IMG/VR virus record: IMGVR_UViG_3300033066_001102
Span: 1 to 64,000 of that record
Strand: one strand, 5' to 3'
Source of the DNA: a virus
Taxonomy: Duplodnaviria; Caudoviricetes
Length of the DNA stretch: 64,000 bases
Position 1 is the first letter of the stretch. Every line of letters starts with the position of its first letter. Position numbers and translations under genes: made by a program. The notes under the pieces are model-generated. The model was not told the origin of the DNA, searched no databases, and saw nothing but the letters and a program-made list of their open reading frames with translations. This document shows, one piece after another, positions 1-64,000 of the stretch.

Positions 1-84
1 ACTTTGTTTTTCTGGAATAATACTTTCAAGCCGTCAGATTACTATTCCGCTGATGTTGTCGCTTAATTGCGCCCAACAACCGGC

Positions 85-118
85 TAAACGCAATGCGTTT
101 ATTTTTGGATAAACGCAA
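85..118. promoter_or_regulatory. Operator-like palindrome TAAACGCA-A-TGCGTTTA plus an extra half-site
   Basis: Perfect 8-1-8 inverted repeat at 85-101 and a third TAAACGCAA at 110-118, just upstream of the ATG at 146. Confidence 0.4.
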
Positions 119-145
119 CTATTTTTTAACTTTAACTATCGCAAA

Positions 146-1819
146 ATGAATGTAATTACCGCAAATGCTTCCGAGTTTGTTTTAACATGGAAATCTTTAA
201 GCAAATCAGAATTCATGGAAATTTTAACTCAGGTAAAGGCTATGCCTGGAGCAAAATTCCGAGAAAAAGACAAGGTATGGACCATACCGATAGCAAATGC
301 CAGCGTCCTTTCAATTGTTGATATTGCAGACAGGTACGGATTCGTAATTAATCATGAGGCTCGATACGCTATTGAAAAAGCATCTAATCAAGCAATAGAC
401 CTACTGGACCTGTCGCTCGGCATAAAACCGGTTAACGATAACTTTGGACTGAAAAAAGAGTTATGGCCGTTTCAGAAGGTAGGAGTGCAGTATGGCATCA
501 TTGCAGGAAACCATCTGAACGGTGACGGTCCTGGAACCGGAAAAACAGCTCAGGCCATTGGAGTTATTCATGCTCAGAATCTTTACCCTGTCCTGGTAGT
601 AACTGTTAAACGCAACAAGATCCCTTTTATGAGAGCCTGGCAATCTTATACAGGCATGACAAGTCTGTCTGTGTGGACTAACGAAGCCAGAGGCAATGCT
701 CAAGTGGATATTATCGACTACAATATGATAGATAAACTTTCGGATTACATTAAGAAATACCGAAATTATGCTGCAGTGGTTTTTGATGAAATACACTATT
801 GCAAAAATTTAAGCACGGCCAGATCAAAAGCGTGTTTGGCGATTGCTGAAAATATTCATTACCGCTATGGCTACTCAGGATCATTAATTGTAAATCACAT
901 GCGCGATCTGTATGCCGCGCTTAAAATCATTGGACGTGAAAAGATATTTGGTACAGAATGGGACTTCCTGAACGCATACTGCAATGTAGCGGACAAAGAA
1001 ATTTGGAAGAAGAATCCGGCAGGTGGCAAAGCCATCAAGAAAACCATTAAGGAGTTCACCGGTATGAAGAATGAAAAAACATTGTTCAGTACACTTCGGG
1101 CGAATTGTTACATCGGTAGGTTGCGAAGGGAAGTAGTTGCTGATCTTCCTTCATTGACAGTTGACTATATCGACATTCCATTGGAAGAAGCGGAGATAGC
1201 TGCTGAGATGAAAATTTACAAAAGAGAATTGATTGATATTGCAGAGCAAATGTATGACTCTAAAGAGGGTACCCTGCAATATCAAAGCCTGGAGAAACAA
1301 GCAAGCGGCAACATTTTTAAAATCAGGTCAGCCGTAGGCCGGGCAAAACTGCCCGGAATAAAAGAGTGGCTAATGAATTTCTTGGAGTCTGGAGAGAAGA
1401 TTATTCTTTTTGCGCATCACCAGGACGTTCAATCAGCAGTAGCATCTTGGTTTCCTAATGGGGCTATTATAAAAGCAGGACAATCAGAAATTGAAGCGAT
1501 GAATGCCGTTGACAGGTTCACTAATGATCCGGAATGCAAGACAATCGTGTGCAGCATGATGGCCGGACAGGAGGCGCTCAATCTACAAGCGGCATCGTAT
1601 ATGGCAATCCTGGAACAACCTTGGACACAGAAGGATATCGATCAGATGGTAGGCAAGATGGACCGAGGCGAGCAGCGGAAAGCGATGATGGTGTATCACA
1701 CAGTCCAAATGGATGATGACAGTGTTGATCAGATCATCATGGAGATTCGCAAACTGAAAGCGGATATGGGGCAAATCAATTCAACCAAATATTTCATCAA
1801 TAAATTCTTAAAACTATGA
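146..1819 (+). CDS. SNF2-family helicase with a HARP-like N-terminal domain
   Basis: Walker A GDGPGTGKT, DEIH box, SGS motif III, C-terminal ILFAHH, GQEALNLQ and QMVGKMDR; N-terminal VKAMPGAKF..KVWTIP resembles HARP. Confidence 0.85.
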   Translation: MNVITANASEFVLTWKSLSKSEFMEILTQVKAMPGAKFREKDKVWTIPIANASVLSIVDIADRYGFVINHEARYAIEKASNQAIDLLDLSLGIKPVNDNFGLKKELWPFQKVGVQYGIIAGNHLNGDGPGTGKTAQAIGVIHAQNLYPVLVVTVKRNKIPFMRAWQSYTGMTSLSVWTNEARGNAQVDIIDYNMIDKLSDYIKKYRNYAAVVFDEIHYCKNLSTARSKACLAIAENIHYRYGYSGSLIVNHMRDLYAALKIIGREKIFGTEWDFLNAYCNVADKEIWKKNPAGGKAIKKTIKEFTGMKNEKTLFSTLRANCYIGRLRREVVADLPSLTVDYIDIPLEEAEIAAEMKIYKRELIDIAEQMYDSKEGTLQYQSLEKQASGNIFKIRSAVGRAKLPGIKEWLMNFLESGEKIILFAHHQDVQSAVASWFPNGAIIKAGQSEIEAMNAVDRFTNDPECKTIVCSMMAGQEALNLQAASYMAILEQPWTQKDIDQMVGKMDRGEQRKAMMVYHTVQMDDDSVDQIIMEIRKLKADMGQINSTKYFINKFLKL

Positions 1820-2346
1820 CCGCTGCACAGAAAATTCTCAATAAACAGCTTTACGAGTTAATCAAAGAAAAGTGCGGGACCGTGAAATATTTTTGCACTA
1901 TTTACCACTATAAGTATGATGGCATTATTCGCATTCTCAAAGGCAAATCCGCTACATTCGATCCTGTTTTATATGATATTATGCGAGAACAAGCATTAAA
2001 CTACGCGCCAGCAATTGTTATAGACATCATCCTCCTGCAAGCGATCATAAAAAAACATTGGGGTAGCATTGAAAAATTTTGCACCGATATTCATATTCGG
2101 AAATTAACATTGCTCAGGATGTTTGAGAACGCCAATATAAACGACAAAAAATTTCTTCAAGTTGCTTACAAGGCTTACACTATTTACCTGATGCAAAAAG
2201 AAGACCTCCATGCCGATCTAAATTTAACTCCTGCGAAATATCTCAATCGAAAAGCCAGACGATTGCTAAACATTAGGCAACTGGTCAAAAAAGAAAGGCT
2301 GAGTGACAAGTATCTGGAGCCGCCAATAGAAGGTATTATTATTTAG
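1816..2346 (+). CDS. Hypothetical protein with two HTH-like repeats (possible regulator)
   Basis: ATGA overlap with helicase; repeats LIKEKCGTVKYFC and IIKKHWGSIEKFC; basic C-terminus. Confidence 0.45.
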   Translation: MTAAQKILNKQLYELIKEKCGTVKYFCTIYHYKYDGIIRILKGKSATFDPVLYDIMREQALNYAPAIVIDIILLQAIIKKHWGSIEKFCTDIHIRKLTLLRMFENANINDKKFLQVAYKAYTIYLMQKEDLHADLNLTPAKYLNRKARRLLNIRQLVKKERLSDKYLEPPIEGIII

Positions 2347-2347
2347 T

Positions 2348-2382
2348 AAAAAAAAGCCGGAGGAAATTCCCTCCGGCTTTTT
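2348..2382. terminator. Bidirectional intrinsic terminator
   Basis: AAAAAAAAGCCGGAGG-AAATTC-CCTCCGGCTTTTT between convergent ORFs ending at 2346 and 2402. Confidence 0.85.
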
Positions 2383-2401
2383 CATTTGAGATCCTACAGA
2401 G

Positions 2402-2710
2402 TCAACATCGCAAATTAAAGCAGTCGCTCCCGGGTAATTGTTTGTTTTGGTACTCAGTATTTAAGGCTATCGCATATTGCATTTCTTGCAGGTTTTTATG
2501 GGGATAGCCTAATGGCCTATCCTGCAAAAAACACATTGGCGCATAACTGTTGTAACCGAACTCCACAGTCAATGTCACTGCTTGCGATAAATCCTCAATG
2601 GTTTTCGAAATACCAGGCGGTTCACCCTTTTGAGGCGGACGTTCTGATGCTACGCTCAGTAAAATGCCGCACATGGCGACAATTAGTGAGATTGCGAGAA
2701 TTTTTTTCAT
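2402..2710 (-). CDS. Small exported or membrane-anchored hypothetical protein
   Basis: MKKILAISLIVAMCGILLSVAS signal-peptide pattern; stop codon lies immediately before the bidirectional terminator. Confidence 0.55.
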   Translation of the reverse strand: MKKILAISLIVAMCGILLSVASERPPQKGEPPGISKTIEDLSQAVTLTVEFGYNSYAPMCFLQDRPLGYPHKNLQEMQYAIALNTEYQNKQLPGSDCFNLRC

Positions 2711-2734
2711 GCAGTAATAATACTGTTTTTTTTT

Positions 2735-2775
2735 TAAAAAATAGCCCCGGAATGGGATGCCGGGGCCATTTTTTG
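2735..2775 (-). terminator. Terminator-like hairpin in the leader of the 2402-2710 gene
   Basis: On the minus strand AAAAAATGGCCCCGG-9 nt-CCGGGGCTATTTTTT; the G-U pair favours the minus orientation. Confidence 0.5.
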
Positions 2776-2820
2776 CCGAGTAACCAGCTCGGACTAACCA
2801 CTATGATATGAATGGAGTGA

Positions 2821-2828
2821 CAAAAGTA
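2821..2828 (-). promoter_or_regulatory. Bacteroidota sigma70 -7 element (TACTTTTG)
   Basis: Exact TAnnTTTG match on the minus strand in an AT-rich divergent spacer; the TTG -33 candidate is slightly off-spaced. Confidence 0.45.
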
Positions 2829-2891
2829 CAGTTTTTAAATTTATTTACTGCCAACTATTGTATATTCTAATTTTTAATTTACATTTACCGC

Positions 2892-3140
2892 ATGGAAACG
2901 ACAGCAATAAAGCCAAAATCACTGAAATTAAAGTCATTTGAACTGGAACAAATATTCAACATGATCTTTGATAATCCGGATATTGAAAAATATTTACGGG
3001 AACGGTCAGACAAAAAAACCAGGTTAAAGATTAATGCTGCAAAGCATGCGCGAAAAAGTTTAAAGGAACAGGCAAAAAGAGATTTTCTCAGATCCGTAGG
3101 ATTCGAGGAAGCACAAGTGTCGCTTTGGCGATTGAAATAG
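2892..3140 (+). CDS. Hypothetical basic protein
   Basis: First ORF of the main + strand operon; 82 aa. Confidence 0.55.
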   Translation: METTAIKPKSLKLKSFELEQIFNMIFDNPDIEKYLRERSDKKTRLKINAAKHARKSLKEQAKRDFLRSVGFEEAQVSLWRLK

Positions 3141-3168
3141 ACAAACACTAACACTAACCCATACCACT

Positions 3169-4164
3169 ATGAAATTTACCAACATTCCCGACGAGGAATT
3201 AAAATCCCGCATTGACAGCGAAGGCGCTGTATTCATCGTTGAAAAGATGAAGCACTATCTTGACAGAACACAATTTTTGTCGGCAGGTCTCTTACACAAG
3301 ATGATCACCAGTACGCCAAAGCAGTTCCTATATGAATGGGAACTGGAAGCAATCGCCAGAGATACCGGGGAGATAATTGAGGACAGTCCTGCGCAACGTG
3401 AAGGGTCCGCATTTCATTCTATCTTGCTTGAGCCGGACCAGTTCGCTTATGAGTTTGCCGTACTGGATGAATCACAAAAGCCTGTTCCTGATAAGGACTA
3501 CAGGACAAAAGCCAATGCAGAATGGAAGGCGGCATTTGAAGGCGAATGTCAGATCACCGGAAAAATAATGCTCACATGGGAGCAGTTCTGCATGGTGAAG
3601 AATATAGAGTCAGTTGCAATGGCTGATCCGGATATCTCCAATATTCTTTCACAGGAAGGACTCACAGAAATTTCCATCTACACAAAGCTCGAATGGAATG
3701 GATTTACGTTTTACATCAAGATAAGGCCGGATCGTATTTCTACACGCATGCCGTTCTTTCTGGACGTGAAGACAACAAAATCTGCATCCCCGGAAATGAA
3801 TCGTTTCCCATCGGATGCGGCATCCTTCGGGTATGACATCAAGATGGCATTGTACTATGATGTGATTTCAGAACACATCGTTAAACTGTTCAACCAGTTT
3901 AAAGTTGACAATCCCACTCCGGAATTAAAAAGGTGCCTGATACTGGCATTCGAGAAAACACCACCATACGATTCGATGATCTACAATATAACTACTGACA
4001 CCATTGAAGTAGGACGTTACCGGTATCGTGCGGCATTGGATCGGATTGCCAAGTGTATGACAGATAATAAATGGCCAGGTTATTCATTCCTTGCAGAAGA
4101 AGGCCATCGTGGTATTGTTGATTTAATTTTGCCAGCATGGGTAGGTAAGGAAATTATTCGATAA
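3169..4164 (+). CDS. PD-(D/E)XK exonuclease, RecE/ExoVIII-like
   Basis: GSAFHSILLEP, KIRPDRI, LDVKTT and YDIKMALY motifs. Confidence 0.8.
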   Translation: MKFTNIPDEELKSRIDSEGAVFIVEKMKHYLDRTQFLSAGLLHKMITSTPKQFLYEWELEAIARDTGEIIEDSPAQREGSAFHSILLEPDQFAYEFAVLDESQKPVPDKDYRTKANAEWKAAFEGECQITGKIMLTWEQFCMVKNIESVAMADPDISNILSQEGLTEISIYTKLEWNGFTFYIKIRPDRISTRMPFFLDVKTTKSASPEMNRFPSDAASFGYDIKMALYYDVISEHIVKLFNQFKVDNPTPELKRCLILAFEKTPPYDSMIYNITTDTIEVGRYRYRAALDRIAKCMTDNKWPGYSFLAEEGHRGIVDLILPAWVGKEIIR

Positions 4165-4195
4165 TTTTTCAATTCACAACAGAAATTAACAGACA

Positions 4196-5215
4196 ATGGA
4201 ACCACAAGATTCAACAACTTACGAATCAGTAGAAATTATGCCAGTAGATTCTAAAGTAATCATGGCACAGGAAACAGCATTGATTGACCGGCAGATTGCA
4301 ACTGCCAAGCAATTCCCCCGGAACATCACTAAGGCAACGGAATCAGCAGTAGCAATTGTGTCTTTGGACAAAGAGACAGCTACTACATGCCATTACAGTG
4401 TTCCCAGAGGTGGGAAGCAGATTTCCGGTCCATCCGTTCACCTGGCAAAAATCATTGCACAGCAATGGGGCAACCTTCGCATACAGGCAAGAGTTGTGGA
4501 CATCGATCAAAAGCATGTGACTTCACAAGCAACCTGTTTTGATCTCGAATCAAACATTGCTATTCAGGTGGAAGTTAAACGATCTATTATGACCAAAAAC
4601 GGACGAATGAGTGATGATATGATTACCGTCACCGGCAATGCAGCGAATAGCATTGCGCTCCGTAATGCAGTGTATGCCATCATCCCGCGGGCCGTAATTG
4701 ACAAGGTGTACAATGCTGCCAAAGGAATGATCACTGGTGATGTGTCTGATGCAAACAAACTCATTGCACGGCGCAAGCAGGTCATTGATAAGTGTAAAGA
4801 TGCCTACAACATTACAGAAGCGGAAGTCCTTTCTGCAATCGGGAAAGCATCAATCAACAATGTTACTCCTGATGATATTATTGCGCTCATTGGAATCGGA
4901 ACAGCTATTAATGATGGTGATACAACCATTGATGAAGCATTCCGGAAAAAGAATACCAATAAGCAGCCAATCACAGATGATATATTCACAAAACCCAAAG
5001 AGGAAAAGCAGGAAGAAACTTCAACAGCTGCAGCGCCGGTTGAAATCTCCGACAAGGTGCGTGATTATGTCACAGGAGCAACAGATCCAAACGCATTGAT
5101 CGTGTATGTGAACAGTCTTACACACCTGCATGGACATACTGAATTCGTTAAACTGGTGACAGACAAGATTAAGACGTTTCCGAAAAAGGATGTCACCGAA
5201 AAACTCAAATTTTAA
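4196..5215 (+). CDS. Conserved phage protein, candidate recombination or ssDNA-annealing partner
   Basis: IDRQIATAKQFPR...GPSVHLA N-terminal domain; located between the RecE-like nuclease and the SMC-like ATPase; function inferred from position. Confidence 0.45.
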   Translation: MEPQDSTTYESVEIMPVDSKVIMAQETALIDRQIATAKQFPRNITKATESAVAIVSLDKETATTCHYSVPRGGKQISGPSVHLAKIIAQQWGNLRIQARVVDIDQKHVTSQATCFDLESNIAIQVEVKRSIMTKNGRMSDDMITVTGNAANSIALRNAVYAIIPRAVIDKVYNAAKGMITGDVSDANKLIARRKQVIDKCKDAYNITEAEVLSAIGKASINNVTPDDIIALIGIGTAINDGDTTIDEAFRKKNTNKQPITDDIFTKPKEEKQEETSTAAAPVEISDKVRDYVTGATDPNALIVYVNSLTHLHGHTEFVKLVTDKIKTFPKKDVTEKLKF

Positions 5216-5244
5216 TTTTCTAACCAATACCTAAACTTCATCCC

Positions 5245-5550
5245 ATGAAAAAAACAACAGTCACAACCATCGCAGCGCTTATGCTATTTGCCATGAGCGT
5301 ATTAACGACAGATGCATTCGGACAATGCAAGCCAACCATTCATTACGCAGGGTGCAACATTGAAGTTGAACAGCCATACCTGTACAGCACATTTCAGTGG
5401 TACAGAAACAACGTCCCTGTTTACCAGGGTAACGTCTTTGCGATTGAAGCAATAGTCGGCGTTTACTATTGCATTACAACCACCACTGATGGATGCACCA
5501 GTAAATCACGTCCATACAATGTCACTGTGTTTTGTGGAGGCAAACAGTAA
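5245..5550 (+). CDS. Secreted single Ig-like domain protein
   Basis: Signal peptide ending AFG|Q; FQWYRNN...GVYYCITTTTDGCTS Ig-like pattern. Confidence 0.55.
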   Translation: MKKTTVTTIAALMLFAMSVLTTDAFGQCKPTIHYAGCNIEVEQPYLYSTFQWYRNNVPVYQGNVFAIEAIVGVYYCITTTTDGCTSKSRPYNVTVFCGGKQ

Positions 5551-5582
5551 TTATTTAACCAACAAAAATTAATAGTACCACT

Positions 5583-6929
5583 ATGAGTAAAATCAAGACC
5601 ATTGAAGTCACCAATCTTAAAGCATTGGACTTCGCAACACTTAATCTGAATGGATGCAGCGTCATCGTGACGGGCAAAAACGACTCAGGAAAATCAACAC
5701 TCCTTCGAGGCACCATTGACAGGATTCGGGGCATCAAGCCGTCCGTTATTGTCAAAGAGGGACAAAAGCACGGGAAGTCATTCATCGAACTGACCAGTGG
5801 TGAGAAATTTGAATGGGTGTTTGCTGATGGGAAGGAAGACAAACTTTATTTCATCACCGACAAACAGATGAAAATTAATGCTACCAGGGCAATCTGCGAC
5901 CGTTTCTTTCCACCGGCATTTGACATTGATGAATGGTTGTCTGCTGCGCCGCAAAAACAGGCTTTAATGTTGCAAAAGTTAATAGGGCTCGACTTTACGG
6001 ATATAAATAATCGCTACCGATCTGCTTTCGAGGCTCGTACTGTAGCAAACAGAAACCTGGAAACGGAGCGTGTAAAGTTTAATGCCATGCCGGATGATCT
6101 TATTCCAATGGAAATTGTAAGCGCTACTGATATTCTGCAAGATATTGAAGCAGTGCGGGAAAAACTGAATAACCAATACCTAACAAATAAGCAACACAAC
6201 GAAGCGCTACGCGCTAAATGGCAAAAGGAAAATACGGAGCAGATGGAGCAAGTGCGTATGTTCAATGCAATGCAATCACAACGGAAAGAATCCCTGCAAA
6301 AAGCAATTAACGCACATGAGGTTTTAATAGAATCGGGATATACCGGCGACGAAGTTTCTAAATGGTTGAAAACACTCACTAATTCGATTGAACCTTTAAA
6401 ATTATTTACTCCACCACCTCAACCTGAGTTCATCGAAGAAATGCCGGATGATGCTGAACTTAAAAACCTTAACACCTTACTTGCTGATCTGCAGGAGCAC
6501 AACGAAAAAGCTCGCAAGTTCATGGAATATGAACAGCAAAAAGAAAAAGTGAAAACCGCATTGGAAAAGGCCGAAGAAGCTAACACACTGGTTAAATCCA
6601 TAGAACTGGAAAAAGAGGAACTGACCAAAACGGCAAATCTTCCTGATGGCATCGCATTCACCGATGATGGCGGTATCAGTATCAATGGCTTCCCAATCGC
6701 TGATGCGCAGATCAGCACGTCCCTAAAGTATATCACGGCGCTGCGGTTAGGATCCTTGAAGATGGGTGAAGTAGATGCATTGTATTTCGATGCATCGTAT
6801 CTGGACCATGCAAGCTATAATGGTGTTCAGAAATGGGCAGACGAACACAACCTGCAGCTGCTTGTCGAACGCCCGGATTGGGACGGCGGCCCATTGAAGT
6901 ATGAAATCATTCAATCACTTAACCAATAA
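5583..6929 (+). CDS. SMC/SbcC-like coiled-coil ATPase
   Basis: Walker A GKNDSGKS at the N-terminus, long coiled coil, signature-like ISTS and Walker B LYFDASYLD at the C-terminus. Confidence 0.7.
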   Translation: MSKIKTIEVTNLKALDFATLNLNGCSVIVTGKNDSGKSTLLRGTIDRIRGIKPSVIVKEGQKHGKSFIELTSGEKFEWVFADGKEDKLYFITDKQMKINATRAICDRFFPPAFDIDEWLSAAPQKQALMLQKLIGLDFTDINNRYRSAFEARTVANRNLETERVKFNAMPDDLIPMEIVSATDILQDIEAVREKLNNQYLTNKQHNEALRAKWQKENTEQMEQVRMFNAMQSQRKESLQKAINAHEVLIESGYTGDEVSKWLKTLTNSIEPLKLFTPPPQPEFIEEMPDDAELKNLNTLLADLQEHNEKARKFMEYEQQKEKVKTALEKAEEANTLVKSIELEKEELTKTANLPDGIAFTDDGGISINGFPIADAQISTSLKYITALRLGSLKMGEVDALYFDASYLDHASYNGVQKWADEHNLQLLVERPDWDGGPLKYEIIQSLNQ

Positions 6930-6940
6930 AATCTACTACT

Positions 6941-7965: not shown

Positions 7966-7971
7966 CATACT

Positions 7972-8190: not shown

Positions 8191-8208
8191 CCCCTAAAAC
8201 TAAAGACT

Positions 8209-51910: not shown

Positions 51911-51929
51911 TACCTTGCTGGTTGAGAGT

Positions 51930-51968: not shown

Positions 51969-51990
51969 ATTTTAAACTATAGGCAAACGA

Positions 51991-52872: not shown

Positions 52873-52888
52873 TATTTTAATGATTTTA

Positions 52889-57065: not shown

Positions 57066-58262
57066 TTAAAACAAAATTAGATTTTCTGCTAATTCAAGTT
57101 GTGTTATGGCAATGTGCCAGATCTCATAATCATTAATTCCGGCAGTGATTCGCCATTTATACGATTCTAAATTGAACATTGCGCTCATCGGAAATACATT
57201 AAAATTATGATTCCCTCCATGTGGAATATCCGGATCAATATATGGTCCAGACATTAACGGCTCTTTTGATAATGCAATGACCTTGAATGTTTCAGCATCA
57301 TATACATAACAACCCATGTGATACTGCCGGTGAATCTGACCTCGCAAGTGCTCAGGATATTGAATGCGTGAATGAAAGAAAGAATAATAACGACCACCAT
57401 AAAGAACAGGGCATGTCCCGCCTCCAATGTCATTGCCGAAGCCCCAACGCCACCAATCAGGAGCAGGATGATCGTGCCGGCAAACTTCCGTGAGTTTTGT
57501 GCCATTGACTTTATATACCACATGGGGAGCAACTGAATATACGGTGTACAGTTCATCATTCTTCTCGAAGAATGTCCAGTTTTTTTCCATCCTTCGACGG
57601 TTCGGCTTGTCAAGAAACCTTGCCATTGCAACAAGCCTGTCCTCCGGATAAACAATACACAACCCAATTGCACAACCATCAGCATAGGACAGATGCAGCC
57701 CTCCCTGATAAATGAATAACCTGGGATCTTCCGCAAAGGAATCGCAGTAAGGAAGGTCAAGCAGCCAATTCGTTCCCGGTATTGGTTGCCACGAATCCAT
57801 ATCAATCTCACACATCGCAATGCGGGTATTTACCGTCCACGGCATTGCATCTACACGGTAGGCCATATACAATCGATTACTATACCGGCACACGGATCCA
57901 TTGAACCAATTAGTGACTTTTATTTCCTGATCACCTACCATGTACGACTGAATCAGTTTAGAACTGTCAACCTTTATCGGCTTCCGGTCCCATCCATATT
58001 GATCGAGCAGGCTCTTGACGGAAACATATTTTGATGCATGTGACTTTGTCAGCCAGGTTTCTTCTTCCAACCGGCGCATGACGATCATGTAATCATCTTC
58101 ATTCTGTGCCAGTGCGACCGCACGTTTTATAATGTCCCGCGAATAGTGCATGAATGCACCATGTACATTTACTACCCTGCTGAGTTCAGGGGCAGTCTTG
58201 TAACTTTCCAGAATCCGGGAGATTTCATCCTGCAGCAACTTATGTTTTCTGTTGTCAGCCAT
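57066..58262 (-). CDS. GH130/GH32-like five-bladed beta-propeller with a ~95-aa N-terminal extension
   Basis: FNGSV...YMAYR, AEDPRLF, EKNWTFF, GGT.PV, FFHS...YH.G.Y, EPL motifs. Confidence 0.7.
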   Translation of the reverse strand: MADNRKHKLLQDEISRILESYKTAPELSRVVNVHGAFMHYSRDIIKRAVALAQNEDDYMIVMRRLEEETWLTKSHASKYVSVKSLLDQYGWDRKPIKVDSSKLIQSYMVGDQEIKVTNWFNGSVCRYSNRLYMAYRVDAMPWTVNTRIAMCEIDMDSWQPIPGTNWLLDLPYCDSFAEDPRLFIYQGGLHLSYADGCAIGLCIVYPEDRLVAMARFLDKPNRRRMEKNWTFFEKNDELYTVYSVAPHVVYKVNGTKLTEVCRHDHPAPDWWRWGFGNDIGGGTCPVLYGGRYYSFFHSRIQYPEHLRGQIHRQYHMGCYVYDAETFKVIALSKEPLMSGPYIDPDIPHGGNHNFNVFPMSAMFNLESYKWRITAGINDYEIWHIAITQLELAENLILF

Positions 58263-58263
58263 G

Positions 58264-59502
58264 TTACCATTTTAAAGCAGCATCCGAAGTATCATTCCAT
58301 TTCACCTGATCAGCAATCCTGGGAAGGACGGTCAGCACTTTCATGTAAGGCAGCGACCTTTGCATGAGCGCACAGTCAATGGCTGCGTAAACATCACGTT
58401 GTGACATAATCAAATATTTTACGGCCTTTCGCGTGAGTAAATATGCATGTGTGCAAAGAGGATATTTAACATCCCACAAATCACCTTTCAGTCTTGTTTT
58501 TGGCTTTCCGAGGCAATGACAACTTCCTACATACATGATATCCCAATCCGGCATTACGTCATCCGCATCATTAAGCGCCTCAATTATTCTGGCATACCAA
58601 TCTTCTACCAGTATCACGTCACCTTCCACAATCAGAAATAAATCATGCGGCAACGCAGCCGCAACGGTCCACGCCATGTAGTGTGACATCACATTGCCAA
58701 CGTCCTTGGCCCCAATATGGTAGTCCGTGCCAGGATTATCATATTCATAGGTGTGTTCAGTTTTTAACCCGAACACTTCTGCATTGATACCATTCATGTA
58801 ATGCACATTGCTTACGCCCCGCTCGTTCAAGTGTTGTTCCAGTCGGGCACGTTCTTCGGGACGCTCAGATAGGGTAATAGCAATTGTTTTGATCTGCCCT
58901 GCATGTCCCTTTGTGATACTTGCTTTATTTTTTTGTCTGGTTATTTTTATCAGCGCATTGTCATACACGCGCTCACTTGACATATCAAATAATTCAACAT
59001 TAAAATCTCCAAGCGGGAAAATATTCAGATGGCCTTTCCAATGTGCAGGAGCAACGTCTTCGATGATGTACAGACCTTCAGGAGCAACCATGCGAGCCAG
59101 ATTATTGAGCAATTGCAATTGATCTTTTTTCTCGTGCGATGCATCATCAATGATCAAATCAAATTCAACATTCTTTATCTGATTCAGCCATTCAACTTTA
59201 TATGCATCGGTAGGAATGAGCATGATTCGGCCATGATCAAGTACCGCATCAATGAAACGATCAGTTCGATTATCAACACCAGTTACAATAGCATCCGGAA
59301 AATATTCAGCGAGTGATAGCAAGCACCCACCGCCGTATTCATTGCAACCAACTTCAATGATGTACTTTACCTTTCGTGTAGCTTTCAATTCTGCAAACCA
59401 CAGATCATACAAATAACCGTATGTGTGATGATCCAGACGATCAGACTTTACTCCAAACTGTTGTTCAATTCTGCGAACCACGTCGCTGTACATTTCTTCC
59501 AT
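58264..59502 (-). CDS. Class I SAM O-methyltransferase fused to a GT25-like glycosyltransferase
   Basis: N-half HTY..LY, IEVG, DLIIDDASH, G.YIIED; C-half ITLSERPEER, G...SH..AW, LIVEGD, WDIMYVG, CTHAYL, AID. Confidence 0.8.
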   Translation of the reverse strand: MEEMYSDVVRRIEQQFGVKSDRLDHHTYGYLYDLWFAELKATRKVKYIIEVGCNEYGGGCLLSLAEYFPDAIVTGVDNRTDRFIDAVLDHGRIMLIPTDAYKVEWLNQIKNVEFDLIIDDASHEKKDQLQLLNNLARMVAPEGLYIIEDVAPAHWKGHLNIFPLGDFNVELFDMSSERVYDNALIKITRQKNKASITKGHAGQIKTIAITLSERPEERARLEQHLNERGVSNVHYMNGINAEVFGLKTEHTYEYDNPGTDYHIGAKDVGNVMSHYMAWTVAAALPHDLFLIVEGDVILVEDWYARIIEALNDADDVMPDWDIMYVGSCHCLGKPKTRLKGDLWDVKYPLCTHAYLLTRKAVKYLIMSQRDVYAAIDCALMQRSLPYMKVLTVLPRIADQVKWNDTSDAALKW

Positions 59503-59528: not shown

Positions 59529-61736
59529 TCATGCTCCTTGCGGTTGCGCTGCAGGTTGACTGAATGCCGCCATTTCCTGCTTATCGGCCAGTTCCATTTC
59601 CTGTAAATGCTGATTGTTTTGCAAAATACGATCTTCCACCGATTCATTCAACTTCGCTTCTTTATTGATAAGTGCAACATTTTCAGATCCCGCTTTTTGT
59701 GTCTTCGCTACTTCGAGCGGAACCGTTCTCTTAATGAACAACTCTTCCTCTTTTAGCCGGTTTGCATGTGCGGCAATCTGATTACCTTGCTCCATAACGG
59801 CAATTTTAGACTGCTCGATTTTATTCTGAGTCTGCCTGATAATATTAACCGCATGCTCTAATATCACTTCCGCTTCAGCACCACTTTCTGCATTATAAGT
59901 TTTCACCAGTTCAAGAATCATGGTTGCATCCGTAGCAAGGGTTTTCTCCATCCATCCCATAATGTACTCTTTTTCCTGGTTAACCTTGGTTGATGATTGC
60001 AGGTATATACCAGCTTCACAAAGTTCAAAATCATTAGATACCTGAAATACGTGAGGCATTCCATCACCACCGATATAACTCTTTGTATCACCCGGTGACC
60101 ATAGATACCTAATCAGATCAGCACAACGCTGTAATCCGGTTTCGGTAAAAGTGCTCATAACATCAAAAACCGGCTTTGTCATGTACGAGCTTTGAATTAG
60201 ATTGCTTTGTACTGTACCTACCGGTGAGGTTGAGGCCGCCTGGCCACTTCGTGCGGAAGGAACACCTGTCATGCGTTCCGCTGTCTGCGTAAGCATAGTT
60301 GATAATGCAATAATGTATTGAATAGAAGCACTTGGTCCATAATCTACTTCACCGCCAGATACTGATCTGCCTGGTATGTCACCGGCGCGGATCTGCTCAA
60401 CAACAAAACCTAAAACCTTTGCTGAATAAGCAACATCCTCCAATTCCATGTTATCCGGTTTTCTTTCAGATGCATATCTTGTTGCCTTTCCACCTGATTG
60501 CGCAAGTAAAAAATCAAGTGTCATCATGCAGTTGCTATACAACTTCTGAACAGGATAAGCACGATTATAAAATGAATGTCGGCTTAACATGCCAAAATAA
60601 GAATATTGCAAATCCATATGATTACCCTGCATGGGAATCTGATTGCGACGGCGTAATGGCTTTAATACAATATCCTTAGAAATCTTTACCAATTCCCAAA
60701 TCTCATCAATCGTCTTATTGTTGTACACTTTATCATTATCTGGCTCATATGGCATAGCAAGAAATTGCTTCTCACTATGTGCCTTAACCTCAATGTCAAT
60801 AACACGATAGAATAATGTTCCATTAATATTTGTAACGCAATCTCCATATTTGCCATTCCAATCCTGGATAGTTTGCGTTCCATCTGCAAGAGAACGCTGA
60901 TCATCCAGTAGTTGTTTCCTTTGCTTGGTATTAAGACGATAGCCATACCTGTGCAATATTTCACTTAACGGCATCAACACATCTTTTCCCATAAATGGTG
61001 ATCTGCGATGAATAGTATCAAATATATAACTGCCTTCGCCACGTTGAAAAATGCAATTCTGTATAGGAATATGGCTGATAATCGGATCATCGTTGATGAT
61101 ATCAACCTTTCCCATTACATCGCCATTAATAAGAATATCATATAGGCATTTTGCTAACTCATCTTGAAATCCATACCGATAATACAGATAGTTCAATCCA
61201 TACTTAAGATTAATTTCCAGATAATCCCGGATACTTTTGTTCGGCATGGATTTAAACTGCTCAGGAATAACGTCCATCTTTTTATCAATCGGAAGTTTCA
61301 TCCCAATAATTGATTCCGCTTCGGCCCATATTGGCTCCAATACCTTTTCGGCAGCAATCCTTCCCATCAGATTCATCTTGCTCGAATAAGCATTTTTATT
61401 CACTCGAAGTACGCTGAATGGGACAGGTCTTGATGTATGTTCACCTACTAACCTTTGTATCAGCGGCTCAAGCAATGGATAACTGGCTGCCGTAAATGGC
61501 TTTGGCTTATCATCCCCATATGTATGTGTCAAATACTTCAGTTCACTAAGGTCAACATTGCCGAGAAAACGATCAAAGTTCTTTTGGTAGTTAAACCTTG
61601 TATCATTCCATCCTTTTGATGATGAATACTTGCTTACTGTATTAGTAATATCAACTGCCCATTTCTGGCGCTCTTCATCTGTTGTTGGTACTGTAAGATC
61701 TGCGATCATGACGCTTTGTTTTGAGTATTCATCCAT
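59529..61736 (-). CDS. Portal protein (crAss-like)
   Basis: YPLLEPLIQRLVGE..RP, CLYDILING, ERMTGVPSAR.G...VGTVQ; between terminase and capsid genes. Confidence 0.85.
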   Translation of the reverse strand: MDEYSKQSVMIADLTVPTTDEERQKWAVDITNTVSKYSSSKGWNDTRFNYQKNFDRFLGNVDLSELKYLTHTYGDDKPKPFTAASYPLLEPLIQRLVGEHTSRPVPFSVLRVNKNAYSSKMNLMGRIAAEKVLEPIWAEAESIIGMKLPIDKKMDVIPEQFKSMPNKSIRDYLEINLKYGLNYLYYRYGFQDELAKCLYDILINGDVMGKVDIINDDPIISHIPIQNCIFQRGEGSYIFDTIHRRSPFMGKDVLMPLSEILHRYGYRLNTKQRKQLLDDQRSLADGTQTIQDWNGKYGDCVTNINGTLFYRVIDIEVKAHSEKQFLAMPYEPDNDKVYNNKTIDEIWELVKISKDIVLKPLRRRNQIPMQGNHMDLQYSYFGMLSRHSFYNRAYPVQKLYSNCMMTLDFLLAQSGGKATRYASERKPDNMELEDVAYSAKVLGFVVEQIRAGDIPGRSVSGGEVDYGPSASIQYIIALSTMLTQTAERMTGVPSARSGQAASTSPVGTVQSNLIQSSYMTKPVFDVMSTFTETGLQRCADLIRYLWSPGDTKSYIGGDGMPHVFQVSNDFELCEAGIYLQSSTKVNQEKEYIMGWMEKTLATDATMILELVKTYNAESGAEAEVILEHAVNIIRQTQNKIEQSKIAVMEQGNQIAAHANRLKEEELFIKRTVPLEVAKTQKAGSENVALINKEAKLNESVEDRILQNNQHLQEMELADKQEMAAFSQPAAQPQGA

Positions 61737-63649
61737 GACATCTTCCGAAACAGCTTCCGTTCGCCTTGCGACCTGGTAGAGACTTGCATCGGTATTCCCA
61801 TATCATTAAAACTGTAATGAACTCCAAGAATAGACTCTTTTTTATCTTCTTCATCCCCTTCTTTTTTGATTGGTACGCCAGACATATCTTCTTCATAACA
61901 CAATGCAACACCTGCGGCGCTCCCCAGATCACTATTGGCTTTGCCAAACAAAGCTATGTTTTTTAAGAAACGTATGTCAAAACAATTTTCAATATGCGGA
62001 GATTGTGTCCATAACTTCAACCGTTCTGCAATAAGCTCTTTCTGGTCCTTGATGTTATAACCGTATGCATCTGCTTCTGATACAACCTTACCGTTTACTC
62101 TGGGGAAGATCTTAAGGTAATCACGTCCATTCACCTTCTTTGATTTCAAAAAATACTCTTTGAGCATTTTGTTATGAAACTCTACTGCAGCTCGAGATTG
62201 CGTGTAAACTGCAGCCTTCAATGCTTCATCATGAAAATCATCAAGTTTTGGCGGCCTTCCAAGGTAAGTAAGTATCGGAATACGACCTATCTCATTGTTG
62301 TTAATAAACCGGCGCCATACAACGATTCCACCTTCAGAGTCCGACTCAGGCGCCTCATCCTTAAAATAATCATCAACAGCTGTTATGTCCGCATCCGGAT
62401 AAAGATGATTGATAGGATCATATGTCTTTACCCACAAACCACCTGGTTGTTCTATAAAAAAAACACGGCCGGTAAACCGGTACTCCCTTCCTATTGATTC
62501 TCGTTCCCATGTCAATGAACCGGTTTTCGCTATTGCCTTCAACTGCGGATTTATAGCAATTCGCTCAATCTGATCATTAATCGCCTTAACATCCACCTTT
62601 GAATTCATCGTAAGCAGGAACAACTCGCCTTTATTGGTTGGATTATTCTGAACTTCTTTATAGTAAGAAGTCTTGTCGTCCATTTCCATCAACGGAGCAC
62701 GGACGGCCATTATCTTTTTTAATGCTCCTTCCTGATCGCTTATACCTGTTTCAATATCCCAATAGTCACCATACTGCATCTGTGCAGGTATCAATATCTG
62801 TTCAAAATTGAACGCTTCCGCAAAAGACCAGTAGTTTTCAAGATCCGTGTTTTTCGAATAGCTGATCTGGTCCACCGTACCAAGAAAAATGTGAAACCCA
62901 ATTATCACATCACCTTCCACAAAACAATCCTTTGTGTCACCCCAATAGGCTGACATGGTAACCTTCTTTCCAAATGTCCCGATTTCATCCGTTACCCCAA
63001 GACTGAAAGCGCCTCCTTTCCATATTGAAGGCTTCGGTATCTGAGAAGTGTAAAGAATAGACTCAGATCCAAGTGTGCGCTTGCCCCACGGTGAATCTAC
63101 TTCCATCCCCAATTTTCGGGCATCTACATTTTCAACGGTAAATGGTTGTGTCATTTGTGGATTGACAGTGCTCAATGCCGTGGCAAACTTCTCTTTGATT
63201 TTTGAAAGGGCCTCCAAATCAGGAGTGGCATAAAAACATTCGGCCTCTGTATTGAACAATAACTCGTGCTCAACAATAGACGTGATATCATCCGATGCAC
63301 CCTTGCGACGACCTTTTAATAGTATTGCGCCAATACGTTTGCTTTCTTTTCGAAGCTCATATATCTTTTGGTGCAATTCATGATCAAGATCTCGGTACAA
63401 CGCATAACTGATAATTTTCTTTTTTGAATATGGACCAGGATCGAATTCTTTATACCGCCGCCTTTTAATAGGCCTGTGATTCAAATGCCGGTAATAGCTT
63501 CCAGGGATCCATACGCCGTCAGGTGGCTTGTACCCTTCCTGGCATCGCCTGATTTCCTCTCTCCAATAGCTTTGATATTCCTTACTGTCCTCTCGCATCG
63601 GCGGCGGCGGATCAGCTATGACAGGGCTATATTTTAAGCATGGTTTCAT
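61706..63649 (-). CDS. terL: Terminase large subunit
   Basis: YWREEIRRC.EGY...G.YY..LN start, LKGRRKGAS Walker A, VTDEIG Walker B, TAVDDY...SDSEG nuclease region. Confidence 0.9.
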   Translation of the reverse strand: MKPCLKYSPVIADPPPPMREDSKEYQSYWREEIRRCQEGYKPPDGVWIPGSYYRHLNHRPIKRRRYKEFDPGPYSKKKIISYALYRDLDHELHQKIYELRKESKRIGAILLKGRRKGASDDITSIVEHELLFNTEAECFYATPDLEALSKIKEKFATALSTVNPQMTQPFTVENVDARKLGMEVDSPWGKRTLGSESILYTSQIPKPSIWKGGAFSLGVTDEIGTFGKKVTMSAYWGDTKDCFVEGDVIIGFHIFLGTVDQISYSKNTDLENYWSFAEAFNFEQILIPAQMQYGDYWDIETGISDQEGALKKIMAVRAPLMEMDDKTSYYKEVQNNPTNKGELFLLTMNSKVDVKAINDQIERIAINPQLKAIAKTGSLTWERESIGREYRFTGRVFFIEQPGGLWVKTYDPINHLYPDADITAVDDYFKDEAPESDSEGGIVVWRRFINNNEIGRIPILTYLGRPPKLDDFHDEALKAAVYTQSRAAVEFHNKMLKEYFLKSKKVNGRDYLKIFPRVNGKVVSEADAYGYNIKDQKELIAERLKLWTQSPHIENCFDIRFLKNIALFGKANSDLGSAAGVALCYEEDMSGVPIKKEGDEEDKKESILGVHYSFNDMGIPMQVSTRSQGERKLFRKMSWMNTQNKAS

Positions 63650-64000
63650 TCTGCCGCTGGTGCCGCGTTACGTTCTGCTACCTTTTGCTCTTCCATAACA
63701 ACCGTCAACATACTCGGTTTTCGGTTCTTTTTATACACGATATTATCAAAAACTCCATCCGATATACTCTGTTTCAGATTTTCAAGAGCCTCTCTACGAA
63801 GCTCATTCAGCGCTTTTAGCGATTTGCCAATGTCAGTTATGGTTTCAACGTCCTTACTTTCCTTCATCCTAATTGTTTGCAGATAAATCTGTTCGTCATA
63901 AACCTGCACCTGTATAAAATCAGAATCATAAAAGTGATCCCTTAATTTTTCAATGGCATCAAGTATCACCGGATCCTTTTCCCATGCAATATGCTTCTTC
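63646..64000 (-). CDS. Partial ORF upstream of terL (possible small terminase), open to the window edge
   Basis: The frame stays open beyond the called GTG (KKHIAWEKDPVILDAIEK...); ATGA overlap with terL. Confidence 0.55.
   Translation of the reverse strand, partial: KKHIAWEKDPVILDAIEKLRDHFYDSDFIQVQVYDEQIYLQTIRMKESKDVETITDIGKSLKALNELRREALENLKQSISDGVFDNIVYKKNRKPSMLTVVMEEQKVAERNAAPAAE

What the first reader, a model, noticed from the sequence alone, without database searches (positions are those of the whole stretch)
1..64000. crAss-like virion module on a lambdoid replication arm, with a DarB-type giant where virion RNA polymerase is expected
Seen: the order terminase-portal-scaffold-MCP-rings-muzzle-cargo-giant gene, plus an initiator with iterons and DnaB; no DNA polymerase or primase in the window. 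Established: Crassvirales encode virion RNAP subunits after the muzzle/cargo genes and usually their own DNA polymerase. By eye I find no DxDGD or DFDID catalytic motif in the three cargo-position proteins. Inference: a lineage that uses the crAss-type ejection apparatus to deliver an anti-defence polyprotein and relies on host RNAP.
Basis: partly seen in the sequence, partly recalled or inferred. Interest (0 to 1): 0.75.

Follow-up and report, generated by a model that had tools for sequence, protein, structure and literature searches.

The report
crAss-type phage without its own polymerases
This wastewater phage builds a crAss-type particle but has no particle-borne RNA polymerase or DNA polymerase; where its relatives encode that polymerase it has a 6152-residue multi-enzyme protein with a DarB-like anti-restriction core, so the slot looks like a swappable payload bay.

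Summary
The window is 64 kb of a 74.6-kb phage contig. Curated crAss-specific Pfam models hit the major capsid protein, ring proteins 1 and 2, and the muzzle. Gene order matches Crassvirales: muzzle, two mid-size proteins, one giant.

No crAss-type virion RNA polymerase is present.
- No conserved DxDxD motif exists.
- An HMM of nine Crassvirales catalytic regions finds Flavobacterium phage Fpv1 at 5e-49 but nothing here (best E 2.9).
- It also finds nothing credible in a complete 78.3-kb relative with terminal repeats.
- No DNA polymerase is found in either genome.

The 6152-aa giant is a mosaic. It has a DarB-like N6-methyltransferase plus SNF2 helicase core, a J-domain and a zincin-like cassette. 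These are set into a lineage-specific backbone whose C-terminal module is also carried by the relative's 2368-aa protein in the same slot.

The giant and both neighbours are almost cysteine-free, like proven crAss cargo proteins. Packaging and ejection are inferred, not shown.

Replication uses a DnaD/O-like initiator with iterons inside its own gene, plus DnaB.

I rate this a new variant of known kinds, interest 0.62. Unchecked first-reader notes of this scan report the same pattern in three other genomes.

The parts
61706..63649 (-). Large terminase subunit (647 aa)
   Evidence: phrog_6681, 1e-42. tblastn hits only crAss-like phages at 22-24% identity. 51% identical to the TerL of relative G001.
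59529..61736 (-). Portal protein (735 aa)
   Evidence: phrog_6547, 1e-32. Hits only Crassvirales and Flavobacterium Fpv phages at 20-25% identity. In the portal tree it lies on a long separate branch with G001.
57066..59502 (-). Two genes inserted between portal and scaffold: a methyltransferase/GT25 protein (412 aa) and a 398-aa unknown
   Evidence: Glyco_transf_25, 7.5e-7, plus weak methyltransferase hits. Homologues lie at the same place in G001.
55891..57030 (-). Scaffold candidate (379 aa)
   Evidence: Assigned by position upstream of the MCP only. No family hit. 41% identical to the G001 protein at the same place.
54389..55825 (-). crAss-type major capsid protein (478 aa)
   Evidence: Pfam Crass_capsid PF23898, 8e-14 over nearly its full length. 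phrog_11589. All 30 phage-record hits are Crassvirales. Only 9 related clusters among 5.8 billion.
51991..54344 (-). Three head-tail connector or auxiliary genes (273, 219 and 293 aa)
   Evidence: Only a weak SU10_adaptor hit, 0.008. All three are conserved in the same order in G001 at 39-54% identity.
51179..51970 (-). Tail ring protein 2
   Evidence: Pfam CrAss_Ring_2 PF25702, 2e-18. phrog_9863.
50532..51182 (-). Tail ring protein 1
   Evidence: Pfam CrAss_Ring_1 PF24228, 4.8e-7, above its cut-off.
46426..50532 (-). Muzzle protein (1368 aa)
   Evidence: Pfam crAss_MUZ PF25731, 1.5e-84, plus crAss_MUZ_C. phmmer 1e-13 to the cr50_1 muzzle. Normal cysteine content, 8.8 per 1000.
44714..46423 (-). 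Cargo-position protein 1 (569 aa)
   Evidence: Same slot and size as phi14:2 g070, which carries crAss_CARG1. No cysteine and one hydrophobic segment at residues 86-104. A language-model lead to crAss_CARG1 clusters scores 0.91. The PF25725 HMM itself does not hit. The AF2 model is poor and mostly helical.
43331..44710 (-). Cargo-position protein 2 (459 aa)
   Evidence: Assigned by position. No cysteine. 47% identical to G001's 443-aa protein in the same slot. No family hit.
24862..43320 (-). 6152-aa polyvalent protein in the giant-cargo slot
   Evidence: A single open frame. Near-identical giants (90-92% identical over their best BLASTP alignments, 28-44% of the query) occur in two other assemblies. 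2 cysteines in 6152 residues. No D.D.D motif. No similarity to RNAP giants.
37108..37251 (-). J-domain inside the giant (residues 2024-2071)
   Evidence: Pfam DnaJ: 7.7e-7, 29.6 bits, above cut-off, when scanned as a 650-aa piece. phmmer hits to solved J-domains.
34945..35790 (-). Zincin-like cassette (residues 2511-2792, with an HEILH motif)
   Evidence: 33-37% identical to a segment of the giants of Erwinia phages PEp14 and Stean and four others. The motif was read from the sequence. No Pfam hit.
29611..34623 (-). DarB-like core: N6-adenine methyltransferase plus SNF2/SF2 helicase (residues about 2900-4570)
   Evidence: Pfam Eco57I, ResIII, SNF2-rel_dom and Helicase_C. Shared at 29-36% identity by all 117 distant polyvalent proteins examined. 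130 phage records hit, many annotated 'DarB-like antirestriction'. P1 darB hit at 2e-18.
24865..28773 (-). Lineage-specific C-terminal module of the giant (residues 4850-6152)
   Evidence: Only 6 hits among 1.84 billion representative proteins. Linked to the C-terminal half of G001's 2368-aa protein through P0141 and P0144 (E 1e-5 to 2e-11, collinear). No hit in crAss, Fpv or phi14:2 cargo proteins. AF2 model is all-helical at pLDDT 40.
24183..24860 (-). Cysteine-rich acidic 225-aa protein directly after the giant
   Evidence: 10 cysteines in 225 aa. Weak homologue at the same place in G001. No family hit.
18614..23946 (-). 1137-aa protein and 639-aa tail-spike-like protein
   Evidence: phrog_4636 tail spike and phrog_3030 on the 639-aa protein. 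Partial homologues in G001.
8555..9652 (+). Replication initiator (DnaD/O-like replisome organiser, 365 aa)
   Evidence: phrog_2514, 1.3e-38; also phrog_9773 'replication initiation O-like'. The N-terminal domain is 47% identical to initiators of temperate Staphylococcus phages.
8817..8998 (+). Candidate origin: about eight 12-nt iterons (core ACAGC) followed by three AGTAAAGAA repeats, inside the initiator gene
   Evidence: the repeat finder families D1, D2 and D10, and Tandem Repeats Finder rows. Sequence read.
9525..11162 (+). DnaB-type replicative helicase
   Evidence: Pfam DnaB_C, 1.8e-74, and DnaB N-terminal domain, 1.6e-27.
146..7696 (+). Recombination and repair genes: SNF2 helicase, RecE-like PD-(D/E)XK exonuclease, a 339-aa unknown, a 448-aa P-loop protein and a DnaQ-like exonuclease
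   Evidence: Pfam SNF2-rel_dom, DUF3799 and RNase_T. phrog_62, phrog_412, phrog_3657 and phrog_1499.

Best explanation
The window is most of the genome of an uncultured wastewater phage, about 75 kb. It belongs to a rare, deep-branching lineage related to Crassvirales.

The phage builds a crAss-type particle: capsid, portal, two-ring tail barrel and muzzle. It keeps the crAss gene order in which the muzzle gene is followed by the proteins stored in the particle.

It encodes no virion RNA polymerase and no DNA polymerase. I infer two consequences:
- All its transcription is done by host RNA polymerase.
- Its DNA is copied by the host replisome. A DnaD/O-like initiator would recruit that replisome by binding iterons inside its own gene, together with a phage DnaB helicase.

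The giant-cargo slot holds a polymerase in Crassvirales and in Flavobacterium phage Fpv1. Here it holds a 6152-residue polyvalent protein, built as follows:
- A lineage-specific backbone. Its C-terminal module is shared with the 2368-residue protein in the same slot of a complete relative.
- Inserted cassettes: a DarB-like N6-adenine methyltransferase plus SNF2 helicase core, a J-domain and a zincin-like module.
- Close relatives differ from it by swaps of these cassettes.

Most likely mechanism (inferred): the two small cysteine-free proteins and the giant are packed in the capsid and tail. They are pushed out partly unfolded through the muzzle before or with the DNA. The giant then acts at once in the cell. 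Its DarB-like core would protect the incoming DNA from restriction, and its J-domain would recruit host DnaK to pull it in or refold it.
For: Shown by tools:
- crAss-specific Pfam models hit the MCP, ring 1, ring 2 and the muzzle.
- TerL, portal and MCP have only crAss-like phages, plus Fpv phages for the portal, as relatives among 50,697 phage records.
- The order muzzle, two mid-size proteins, giant is the same in cr50_1, Fpv1 and phi14:2. Their giants carry the gp66-type catalytic region with DFDID or DYDID.
- An HMM built from nine Crassvirales catalytic regions finds Fpv1 gp33 at 4.8e-49. In all six frames of this genome its best E is 2.9.
- Neither the giant nor the 459-aa protein has a D.D.D motif. 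The one in the 569-aa protein is not conserved in its family.
- Relative G001 is 78,308 bp, has 123-bp terminal repeats and is rated 100% complete. It shares the module at 39-68% identity. It has a motif-free 2368-aa protein in the slot and no polymerase.
- The giant's core is shared with more than 460 polyvalent proteins, with 130 phage records labelled DarB-like, and with P1 darB.
- The C-terminal module links to G001's protein.
- Giants that are about 90% identical over the shared segments differ by whole segments.
- Cysteine count: 2 in 7180 residues for the three cargo-position proteins, against about 10 per 1000 in the rest of the proteome. The same depletion is seen in phi14:2 g066-g070 (MS-verified virion proteins) and in the corresponding cr50_1 and Fpv1 proteins, but not in the muzzles.
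- Initiator, iterons and DnaB.

From the literature: in PhiCrAss001 the genes after the muzzle encode cargo proteins held in the capsid and tail and ejected partly unfolded (PMC10172136).
Against: - No direct evidence that the giant is in the particle or is ejected.
- The 569-aa and 459-aa proteins show no significant sequence or profile similarity to crAss cargo proteins. The PF25725 HMM is negative and hhalign is negative. The reference cargo proteins do not align with each other either, so this test has little power.
- About 4,000 residues of the giant have no assigned fold. Both AF2 models were of low confidence (pLDDT 40 and 44).
- No host-type promoter signal stood out.
- The contig has no terminal repeat and is rated 95% complete. 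The assembly graph branches at its start.
- The host was not identified.
Confidence: 0.7

Rival explanations
1. A virion RNA polymerase is present but is too divergent to detect. It would be hidden in an unassigned part of the giant, in the 1137-aa protein or in the small cargo proteins.
For: About 4,000 residues of the giant have no family. crAss RNAPs are known to be very divergent; for the epsilon group HHpred reaches only 95% probability (PMC11054128). My two structure models were too poor to show folds.
Against: Every crAss-type and cellular two-barrel polymerase needs the DxDxD metal site. The giant, the 459-aa protein and the 1137-aa protein have no D.D.D, and the one in the 569-aa protein is not conserved. 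The catalytic-region query and HMM reach all sampled Crassvirales families and Fpv1 (E down to 1e-28 by tblastn, 5e-49 by HMM) but find nothing here. Both models are almost entirely helical, with no barrel.
Confidence: 0.05
2. The polymerase genes lie in a part of the genome that was not assembled.
For: No terminal repeat; the record is classed linear and 95% complete. Contigs of the likely source run diverge from the contig at positions 48-96 into sequence not present in it.
Against: The slot where the RNAP gene belongs is assembled and occupied. The complete relative with terminal repeats lacks both polymerases. The 95% figure equals 74.6/78.3 kb, the ratio to that relative's length; that this is where the figure comes from is my inference. 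The contig ends lie in an early-gene cassette array of small ORFs.
Confidence: 0.05
3. The giant is not ejected cargo. It would be made late and either act inside the infected cell (for example by methylating progeny DNA) or serve only as an internal structural or scaffolding protein.
For: Nothing here shows packaging. The C-terminal module and the N-terminal third have no known function. G001's 2368-aa counterpart has no recognisable enzyme domain.
Against: It lies in the cargo block, between the muzzle/cargo genes and the tail-spike genes, on one strand with gaps of a few bases. Its extreme cysteine depletion matches proven ejected proteins and other polyvalent proteins. P1 DarB, the archetype, is packaged and injected (established knowledge, not tested here).
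Confidence: 0.15
4. The element is a temperate or plasmid-like 'lambdoid' phage, and host-dependence of replication reflects lysogeny.
For: The initiator type is typical of temperate phages. RecE-like exonuclease, RadC, two cytosine or other DNA methyltransferases and a cassette array are present.
Against: No integrase, repressor, ParA/B or excisionase family was found in any ORF tested over the whole contig. No ORF of integrase size is left unassigned other than the 339-aa phrog_3657 protein, which sits next to the exonuclease. Small HTH proteins could have been missed.
Confidence: 0.1

Closest known systems
Crassvirales (Cellulophaga phage phi14:2, Bacteroides phage PhiCrAss001, uncultured phage cr50_1)
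   Same: crAss-type MCP, ring proteins 1 and 2, and muzzle (Pfam). Nearest TerL and portal. The same order: muzzle, two mid-size proteins, giant. Cysteine-poor proteins after the muzzle.
   Different: No gp66-type RNA polymerase, no DNA polymerase, and a 74.6-kb genome instead of about 90-105 kb. TerL, portal and MCP are only 21-25% identical. The portal lies on its own long branch. The giant carries a DarB-like core instead of the polymerase.
Flavobacterium phage Fpv1 (Fipvunavirus, not placed in Crassvirales)
   Same: Related portal and muzzle N-terminus. The same order: muzzle, 628 aa, 732 aa, then a 4401-aa virion protein.
   Different: The Fpv1 giant contains the gp66-type polymerase (phmmer 1.5e-23 to gp66; DYDID motif). 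The giant here does not.
IMGVR_UViG_3300010400_000002 (G001), the nearest complete genome
   Same: Syntenic virion module from TerS to tail spike at 39-68% identity. No polymerases. A cysteine-free cargo trio. Shares the C-terminal module of the slot protein.
   Different: Its slot protein is 2368 aa with no methyltransferase, helicase, J-domain or any Pfam hit. Its replication arm is unrelated, with Lin1244-like, AAA_25 and HNH proteins.
DarB of phage P1 and the 'DarB-like antirestriction' / PLxRFG giants of Bcep22-, PEp14- and LASTA-type podophages; polyvalent proteins in the sense of Iyer, Aravind and co-workers (2017, from memory)
   Same: An N6-methyltransferase plus SF2 helicase core at 29-36% identity. 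A giant single ORF with shuffled accessory domains. Very low cysteine content.
   Different: No PLxRFG motif, no LPD38 and no lytic transglycosylase. The C-terminal module is specific to this lineage. It sits in a crAss-type virion module.
Lambda O/ori and SPP1-type replisome organisers
   Same: The iterons lie inside the initiator's own gene, between its two domains, and are followed by an A+T-rich stretch. The initiator gene is followed by a helicase gene.
   Different: By sequence the initiator belongs to the DnaD-like family. The phage supplies DnaB itself rather than a loader for the host helicase. No cI/cro/int module was found.

Membership tests
Crassvirales / crAss-like phages | crAss-type major capsid protein | tested here: met
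   PF23898, 8e-14, over residues 37-466. All tblastn hits are Crassvirales.
Crassvirales / crAss-like phages | Tail barrel ring proteins and a muzzle protein with the crass fold | tested here: met
   PF25702 2e-18, PF24228 5e-7, PF25731 1.5e-84.
Crassvirales / crAss-like phages | Virion-packaged two-barrel RNA polymerase (gp66 type, DxDxD) | tested here: not met
   No conserved motif. The HMM, with a positive control at 4.8e-49, gives a best E of 2.9 here. phmmer with gp66, Fpv1 gp33 and cr50_1 gp059 is negative.
Crassvirales / crAss-like phages | Own family A or B DNA polymerase and primase | tested here: not met
   No polymerase or primase family in any ORF tested over the whole contig. Two unknowns of 339 and 448 aa leave the primase question partly open.
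Crassvirales / crAss-like phages | Phylogenetic placement inside the order | tested here: inconclusive
   Portal tree of 13 rows: this phage plus G001 form a long branch of their own. The tree is unresolved against Fpv1, Steigviridae and Suoliviridae. It has no outgroup and no Intestiviridae or Crevaviridae sequences.
Polyvalent proteins / DarB-like antirestriction giants | N6-adenine methyltransferase fused to an SF2 helicase in one very large ORF | tested here: met
   Eco57I, ResIII, SNF2 and Helicase_C. 29-36% identity over about 1,600 residues to more than 460 such proteins. P1 darB hit at 2e-18.
Polyvalent proteins / DarB-like antirestriction giants | Accessory domains shuffled between close relatives | tested here: met
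   P0012 and P0013, 85-92% identical over the shared segments, lack residues 1282-1956, 2490-2817 or 1389-2469 of this giant.
Polyvalent proteins / DarB-like antirestriction giants | Named LPD domains, PLxRFG/LPD38 C-terminal region | tested here: not met
   Only LPD14 at 23 bits, below its 27-bit cut-off. No PLxRFG motif, although PEp14 has it.
Polyvalent proteins / DarB-like antirestriction giants | Packaged in the particle, injected, and protects incoming DNA from restriction | not testable with these tools
   Supported only by gene position and cysteine depletion.
Lambdoid replication module | Origin iterons inside the initiator gene | tested here: met
   12-nt repeats at 8817-8970 within 8555-9652.
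Lambdoid replication module | P-type loader for the host helicase, and a cI/cro/int immunity region | tested here: not met
   The phage has its own DnaB. No repressor or integrase family was found.

The most novel reading that the evidence does not exclude
The crAss-type particle is a general protein-delivery device, and the gene slot after muzzle/cargo-1/cargo-2 is an exchangeable payload bay. The same slot holds a virion RNA polymerase in Crassvirales and Fpv1, a 2.4k-residue protein without recognisable enzymes in G001, and DarB-like multi-enzyme arrays of 5-6k residues here. The arrays differ by cassette swaps between phages whose giants are about 90% identical over shared segments. On this reading the virion polymerase is one payload among several rather than a defining trait. 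A polymerase-free sister lineage lives entirely on host transcription and replication. Its genome is 27% shorter, which would leave more capsid room for protein, provided the capsid is the same size as in PhiCrAss001.
Probability: 0.45. Interest if true: 0.75.

Novelty: new variant of a known kind. Interest (0 to 1): 0.62.

Why it matters
The virion RNA polymerase is treated as a hallmark of crAss-like phages in every paper I could find. This lineage keeps the whole crAss ejection apparatus but lacks that polymerase and a DNA polymerase.

- It separates the particle design from the transcription strategy.
- It gives a natural comparison for asking what the cargo system needs in order to work.
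- It shows that very large enzyme arrays can occupy the slot, about 0.68 MDa per chain (my estimate from length).
- It predicts a simple phenotype: early transcription sensitive to rifampicin, unlike phi14:2.
- It identifies a compact composition marker, near-absence of cysteine, for proteins that travel through the tail.

Tried and rejected
- The search for related loci with the 459-aa protein alone found nothing. The giant alignment was too long for the tool.
- phmmer and hhalign of the 569-aa and 459-aa proteins against phi14:2, cr50_1 and Fpv1 cargo proteins gave nothing. Those references do not match each other either, so this says nothing either way.
- The PF25725 (crAss_CARG1) search of the genome was negative.
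- gp66 has no Pfam or PHROG family, so no family-based genome search was possible.
- The PDB sequence searches of the giant found only J-domains and a short INO80 (SNF2-type ATPase) match.
- The Atlas search of residues 1540-1800 gave scores of 0.75, which is uninformative. My by-eye reading of a ParB-like DGRHR motif and a DUF2958-like stretch there is unconfirmed.
- AF2 models of the C-terminal module (pLDDT 40) and of the 569-aa protein (pLDDT 44) were too poor for fold searches, so none was run.
- Promoter scans showed no excess over shuffles or uniform expectation: sigma-70 type, the Bacteroidota TTTG...TAnnTTTG pattern, and intergenic TAnnTTTG.
- PDB searches of the 339-aa and 448-aa replication-arm unknowns were empty.
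- Laying contigs on the contig start showed a branching assembly graph but did not close the genome.
- The C-terminal-module HMM found nothing in crAss or Fpv proteins.


Full report
**What is in the window**

The window is bases 1-64000 of a single 74,613-bp virus record. The record has no terminal repeat and is classed linear and 95% complete. Genes form two arms. A minus-strand virion arm runs from about 66.7 kb down to 14.4 kb. A plus-strand early and replication arm runs from 66.9 kb over the contig ends to 14.45 kb. No tRNA gene was found.

**The virion arm**

Curated models made from the PhiCrAss001 structure hit four proteins above their cut-offs:
- Crass_capsid on 54389-55825
- CrAss_Ring_2 on 51179-51970
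- CrAss_Ring_1 on 50532-51182
- crAss_MUZ (1.5e-84) on 46426-50532

TerL, portal and MCP have, among 50,697 phage records, only crAss-like phages as relatives. For the portal and the muzzle N-terminus there are also Flavobacterium psychrophilum Fpv phages. All these matches are at 20-26% identity. Two extra genes (a methyltransferase/GT25 protein and a 398-aa unknown) lie between portal and scaffold. The scaffold is assigned by position only.

**What the slot holds in relatives**

| Phage | After the muzzle | Giant | RNA polymerase in giant |
|---|---|---|---|
| phi14:2 | g070 (593 aa, crAss_CARG1), g069 (420 aa), g068, g067 | g066, 2180 aa | yes, DFDID |
| cr50_1 (Suoliviridae) | 673 aa, 637 aa | 4774 aa | yes |
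| Fpv1 (outside Crassvirales) | 628 aa, 732 aa | 4401 aa | yes, 1.5e-23 to gp66, DYDID |
| This phage | 569 aa, 459 aa | 6152 aa | no (see below) |

The giant here therefore sits where an RNA-polymerase giant is expected.

**Is a polymerase hidden?**

- The giant, the 459-aa protein, the muzzle and the 1137-aa protein contain no D.D.D at all.
- The single DGDED in the 569-aa protein reads EGAED, EGPED or DGGED in its homologues.
- A 551-residue piece of gp66 around the catalytic site finds 144 phage records across Steigviridae, Suoliviridae, Intestiviridae and Fpv phages.
- An HMM built from nine Crassvirales pieces finds Fpv1, which was left out of the model, at 4.8e-49. In six-frame translations of this genome its best E is 2.9.
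- Full-length gp66, Fpv1 gp33 and cr50_1 gp059 find nothing here by phmmer.
- No ORF in the remaining 10.6 kb exceeds 367 aa. None hits a polymerase family.

**A complete relative**

The MCP has only nine related clusters among 5.8 billion. One lies on IMGVR_UViG_3300010400_000002 (G001). That record is 78,308 bp, has a 123-bp direct terminal repeat and is rated 100% complete.

G001 shares the whole module in order: TerL 51%, portal 54%, MCP 68%, rings 55%, muzzle 54%, and the two cargo-position proteins 43% and 47%. In the giant slot it has a 2368-aa protein with no Pfam hit and no D.D.D. Its replication arm is unrelated and also lacks polymerases.

The RNAP HMM finds only one 113-aa ORF in G001, at E 8e-4. 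I did not follow this up.

Absence of both polymerases is therefore a property of the lineage, not of an incomplete contig.

**The giant**

It is one open frame of 6152 codons. Two independent assemblies hold giants that are 85-92% identical to it over the shared segments. They differ by whole segments: residues 1282-1956, 2490-2817 or 1389-2469 are missing or replaced.

Layout of the protein:
- Residues 1-67: a duplicated short motif, also seen in unrelated polyvalent proteins.
- Residues 435-838: a region shared with about nine other polyvalent proteins. It includes a sub-threshold LPD14 hit.
- Residues 2024-2071: a J-domain.
- Residues 2511-2792: a cassette with an HEILH motif, shared with the giants of Erwinia phages PEp14 and Stean.
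- Residues about 2900-4570: a core with Eco57I-type N6-methyltransferase, ResIII, SNF2 and Helicase_C signatures. All 117 distant polyvalent proteins examined share it.
- Residues 4850-6152: a C-terminal module.

The core hits 130 phage records, many annotated 'DarB-like antirestriction' (Bcep22, DC1, Ralstonia phages, PEp14-like phages, Bacteroides phage BKO1-TP3). It also hits P1 darB at 2e-18 over the methyltransferase.

Unlike those giants, this one has no PLxRFG motif. Its C-terminal module has only six hits among 1.84 billion representative proteins. Two of those, P0141 and P0144, also match the C-terminal half of G001's 2368-aa protein, collinearly, at about 1e-5. A direct HMM built from the giant's close relatives ranked that protein first, at E 0.009.

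I read this as a lineage-specific slot protein into which a DarB-like block and other cassettes were inserted. The opposite direction, loss in G001, is equally possible.

**Evidence that the three proteins are cargo**

- They lie in the cargo block.
- The 569-aa protein has one hydrophobic segment. PhiCrAss001 gp45 has a predicted transmembrane helix (PMC10172136).
- The clearest signal is composition. The giant has 2 cysteines in 6152 residues, both in the helicase. The 569-aa and 459-aa proteins have none, and G001's three counterparts have none.
- The rest of the proteome has about 10 cysteines per 1000 residues, and the muzzle has 8.8.
- The same depletion holds for phi14:2 g066-g070, which are virion proteins by mass spectrometry according to the record's annotation. 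It also holds for the cr50_1 and Fpv1 counterparts and for polyvalent proteins in general, while the cr50_1 muzzle has 11.2 per 1000.
- PhiCrAss001 cargo is ejected partly unfolded and refolds in the cell (PMC10172136). A built-in J-domain fits that model. This last point is inference.

**Replication**

The 365-aa protein at 8555-9652 is a DnaD-like/O-like replisome organiser. Its N-terminal domain is 47% identical to initiators of temperate Staphylococcus phages. About eight 12-nt repeats with an ACAGC core, followed by three AGTAAAGAA units, lie in the linker of its own gene. DnaB follows.

The arm also carries:
- an SNF2 helicase
- a RecE-like exonuclease
- a DnaQ-like exonuclease
- a DUF1064 resolvase
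- RadC
- two DNA methyltransferases

No integrase or repressor family was found.

**Placement and habitat**

In a portal tree of 13 sequences, this phage and G001 form a long branch of their own. They are not nested in Steigviridae or Suoliviridae and are unresolved against Fpv1. The tree has no outgroup and lacks two Crassvirales families, so loss versus primary absence of the polymerase stays open.

Runs from several wastewater studies hold the sequence.

**Literature and earlier notes**

Papers on Crassvirales, including the zeta and epsilon groups, all describe the virion polymerase as shared. I found no paper describing a crAss-type phage without it, within the limits of the library.

Unchecked first-reader notes of this scan report the same pattern in three other genomes. 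I did not test those.

**Verdict**

Delivery of the giant through the tail and dependence on host RNA polymerase are well-grounded inferences, not demonstrations.

Noticed in passing
window 24862-46423; G001 (L007) 4985-15151: The three cargo-position proteins together have 2 cysteines in 7180 residues, and G001's three counterparts have none. The rest of the proteome has about 10 per 1000. The same depletion is seen in phi14:2, cr50_1 and Fpv1 cargo proteins but not in muzzle proteins. The end-placed cysteines seen in those references (for example gp66 residues 3 and 2179) are absent here.
   Followed up: partly
window 24862-43320 compared with P0012 and P0013: Giants that are 85-92% identical over the shared segments differ by replacement of whole segments (residues 1282-1956, 2490-2817, 1389-2469). 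One relative carries a phosphoribosyltransferase family instead. This points to recent cassette exchange inside one ORF.
   Followed up: partly
window 43120-43320 (giant residues 1-67): A duplicated motif of about 25 residues (F-N-x-G/P-x-Y-x-x-F-x-S-K) at the very N-terminus. It recurs in the otherwise unrelated polyvalent proteins P0016 and P0017, and in another form in P0142 and G001's 2368-aa protein. It may be a packaging or docking signal.
   Followed up: no
window 24183-24860: A 225-aa acidic protein with 10 cysteines lies directly after the almost cysteine-free giant. A weak homologue sits at the same place in G001.
   Followed up: no
G001 (L009) about 7126-7464, minus strand: A 113-aa ORF in the relative's early arm gives the only sub-threshold hit to the crAss RNAP catalytic HMM (E 8e-4, HMM positions 122-215). 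It is too short to be a polymerase and could be chance or a remnant.
   Followed up: no
window 57066-59502: A methyltransferase/glycosyltransferase-25 fusion and a 398-aa unknown interrupt the portal-scaffold junction. G001 has the same insert, split into more genes.
   Followed up: no
window 11885-13042: Two overlapping frames, starting 2 nt apart, are both open for about 385 codons. One is a DNA methyltransferase (phrog_1008).
   Followed up: no
window 48-117: Contigs of the likely source run diverge here, at a 10-bp-stem hairpin, into sequence absent from the record. One 2.3-kb contig has four times the depth. This fits strain variation in the cassette array that another note of this scan describes at the contig end.
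   Followed up: partly
L024-L026, L029, L030 (Suoliviridae portal genes): Table-11 translations of five Suoliviridae portal genes contain 8-11 in-frame stops. This is consistent with the stop-codon reassignment known in that family.
   Followed up: no
L001 6183-6569 (contig 69183-69569): A 128-aa early protein carries the DnaA C-terminal helix-turn-helix domain (3.5e-8). It may bind DnaA boxes and interfere with host initiation.
   Followed up: no
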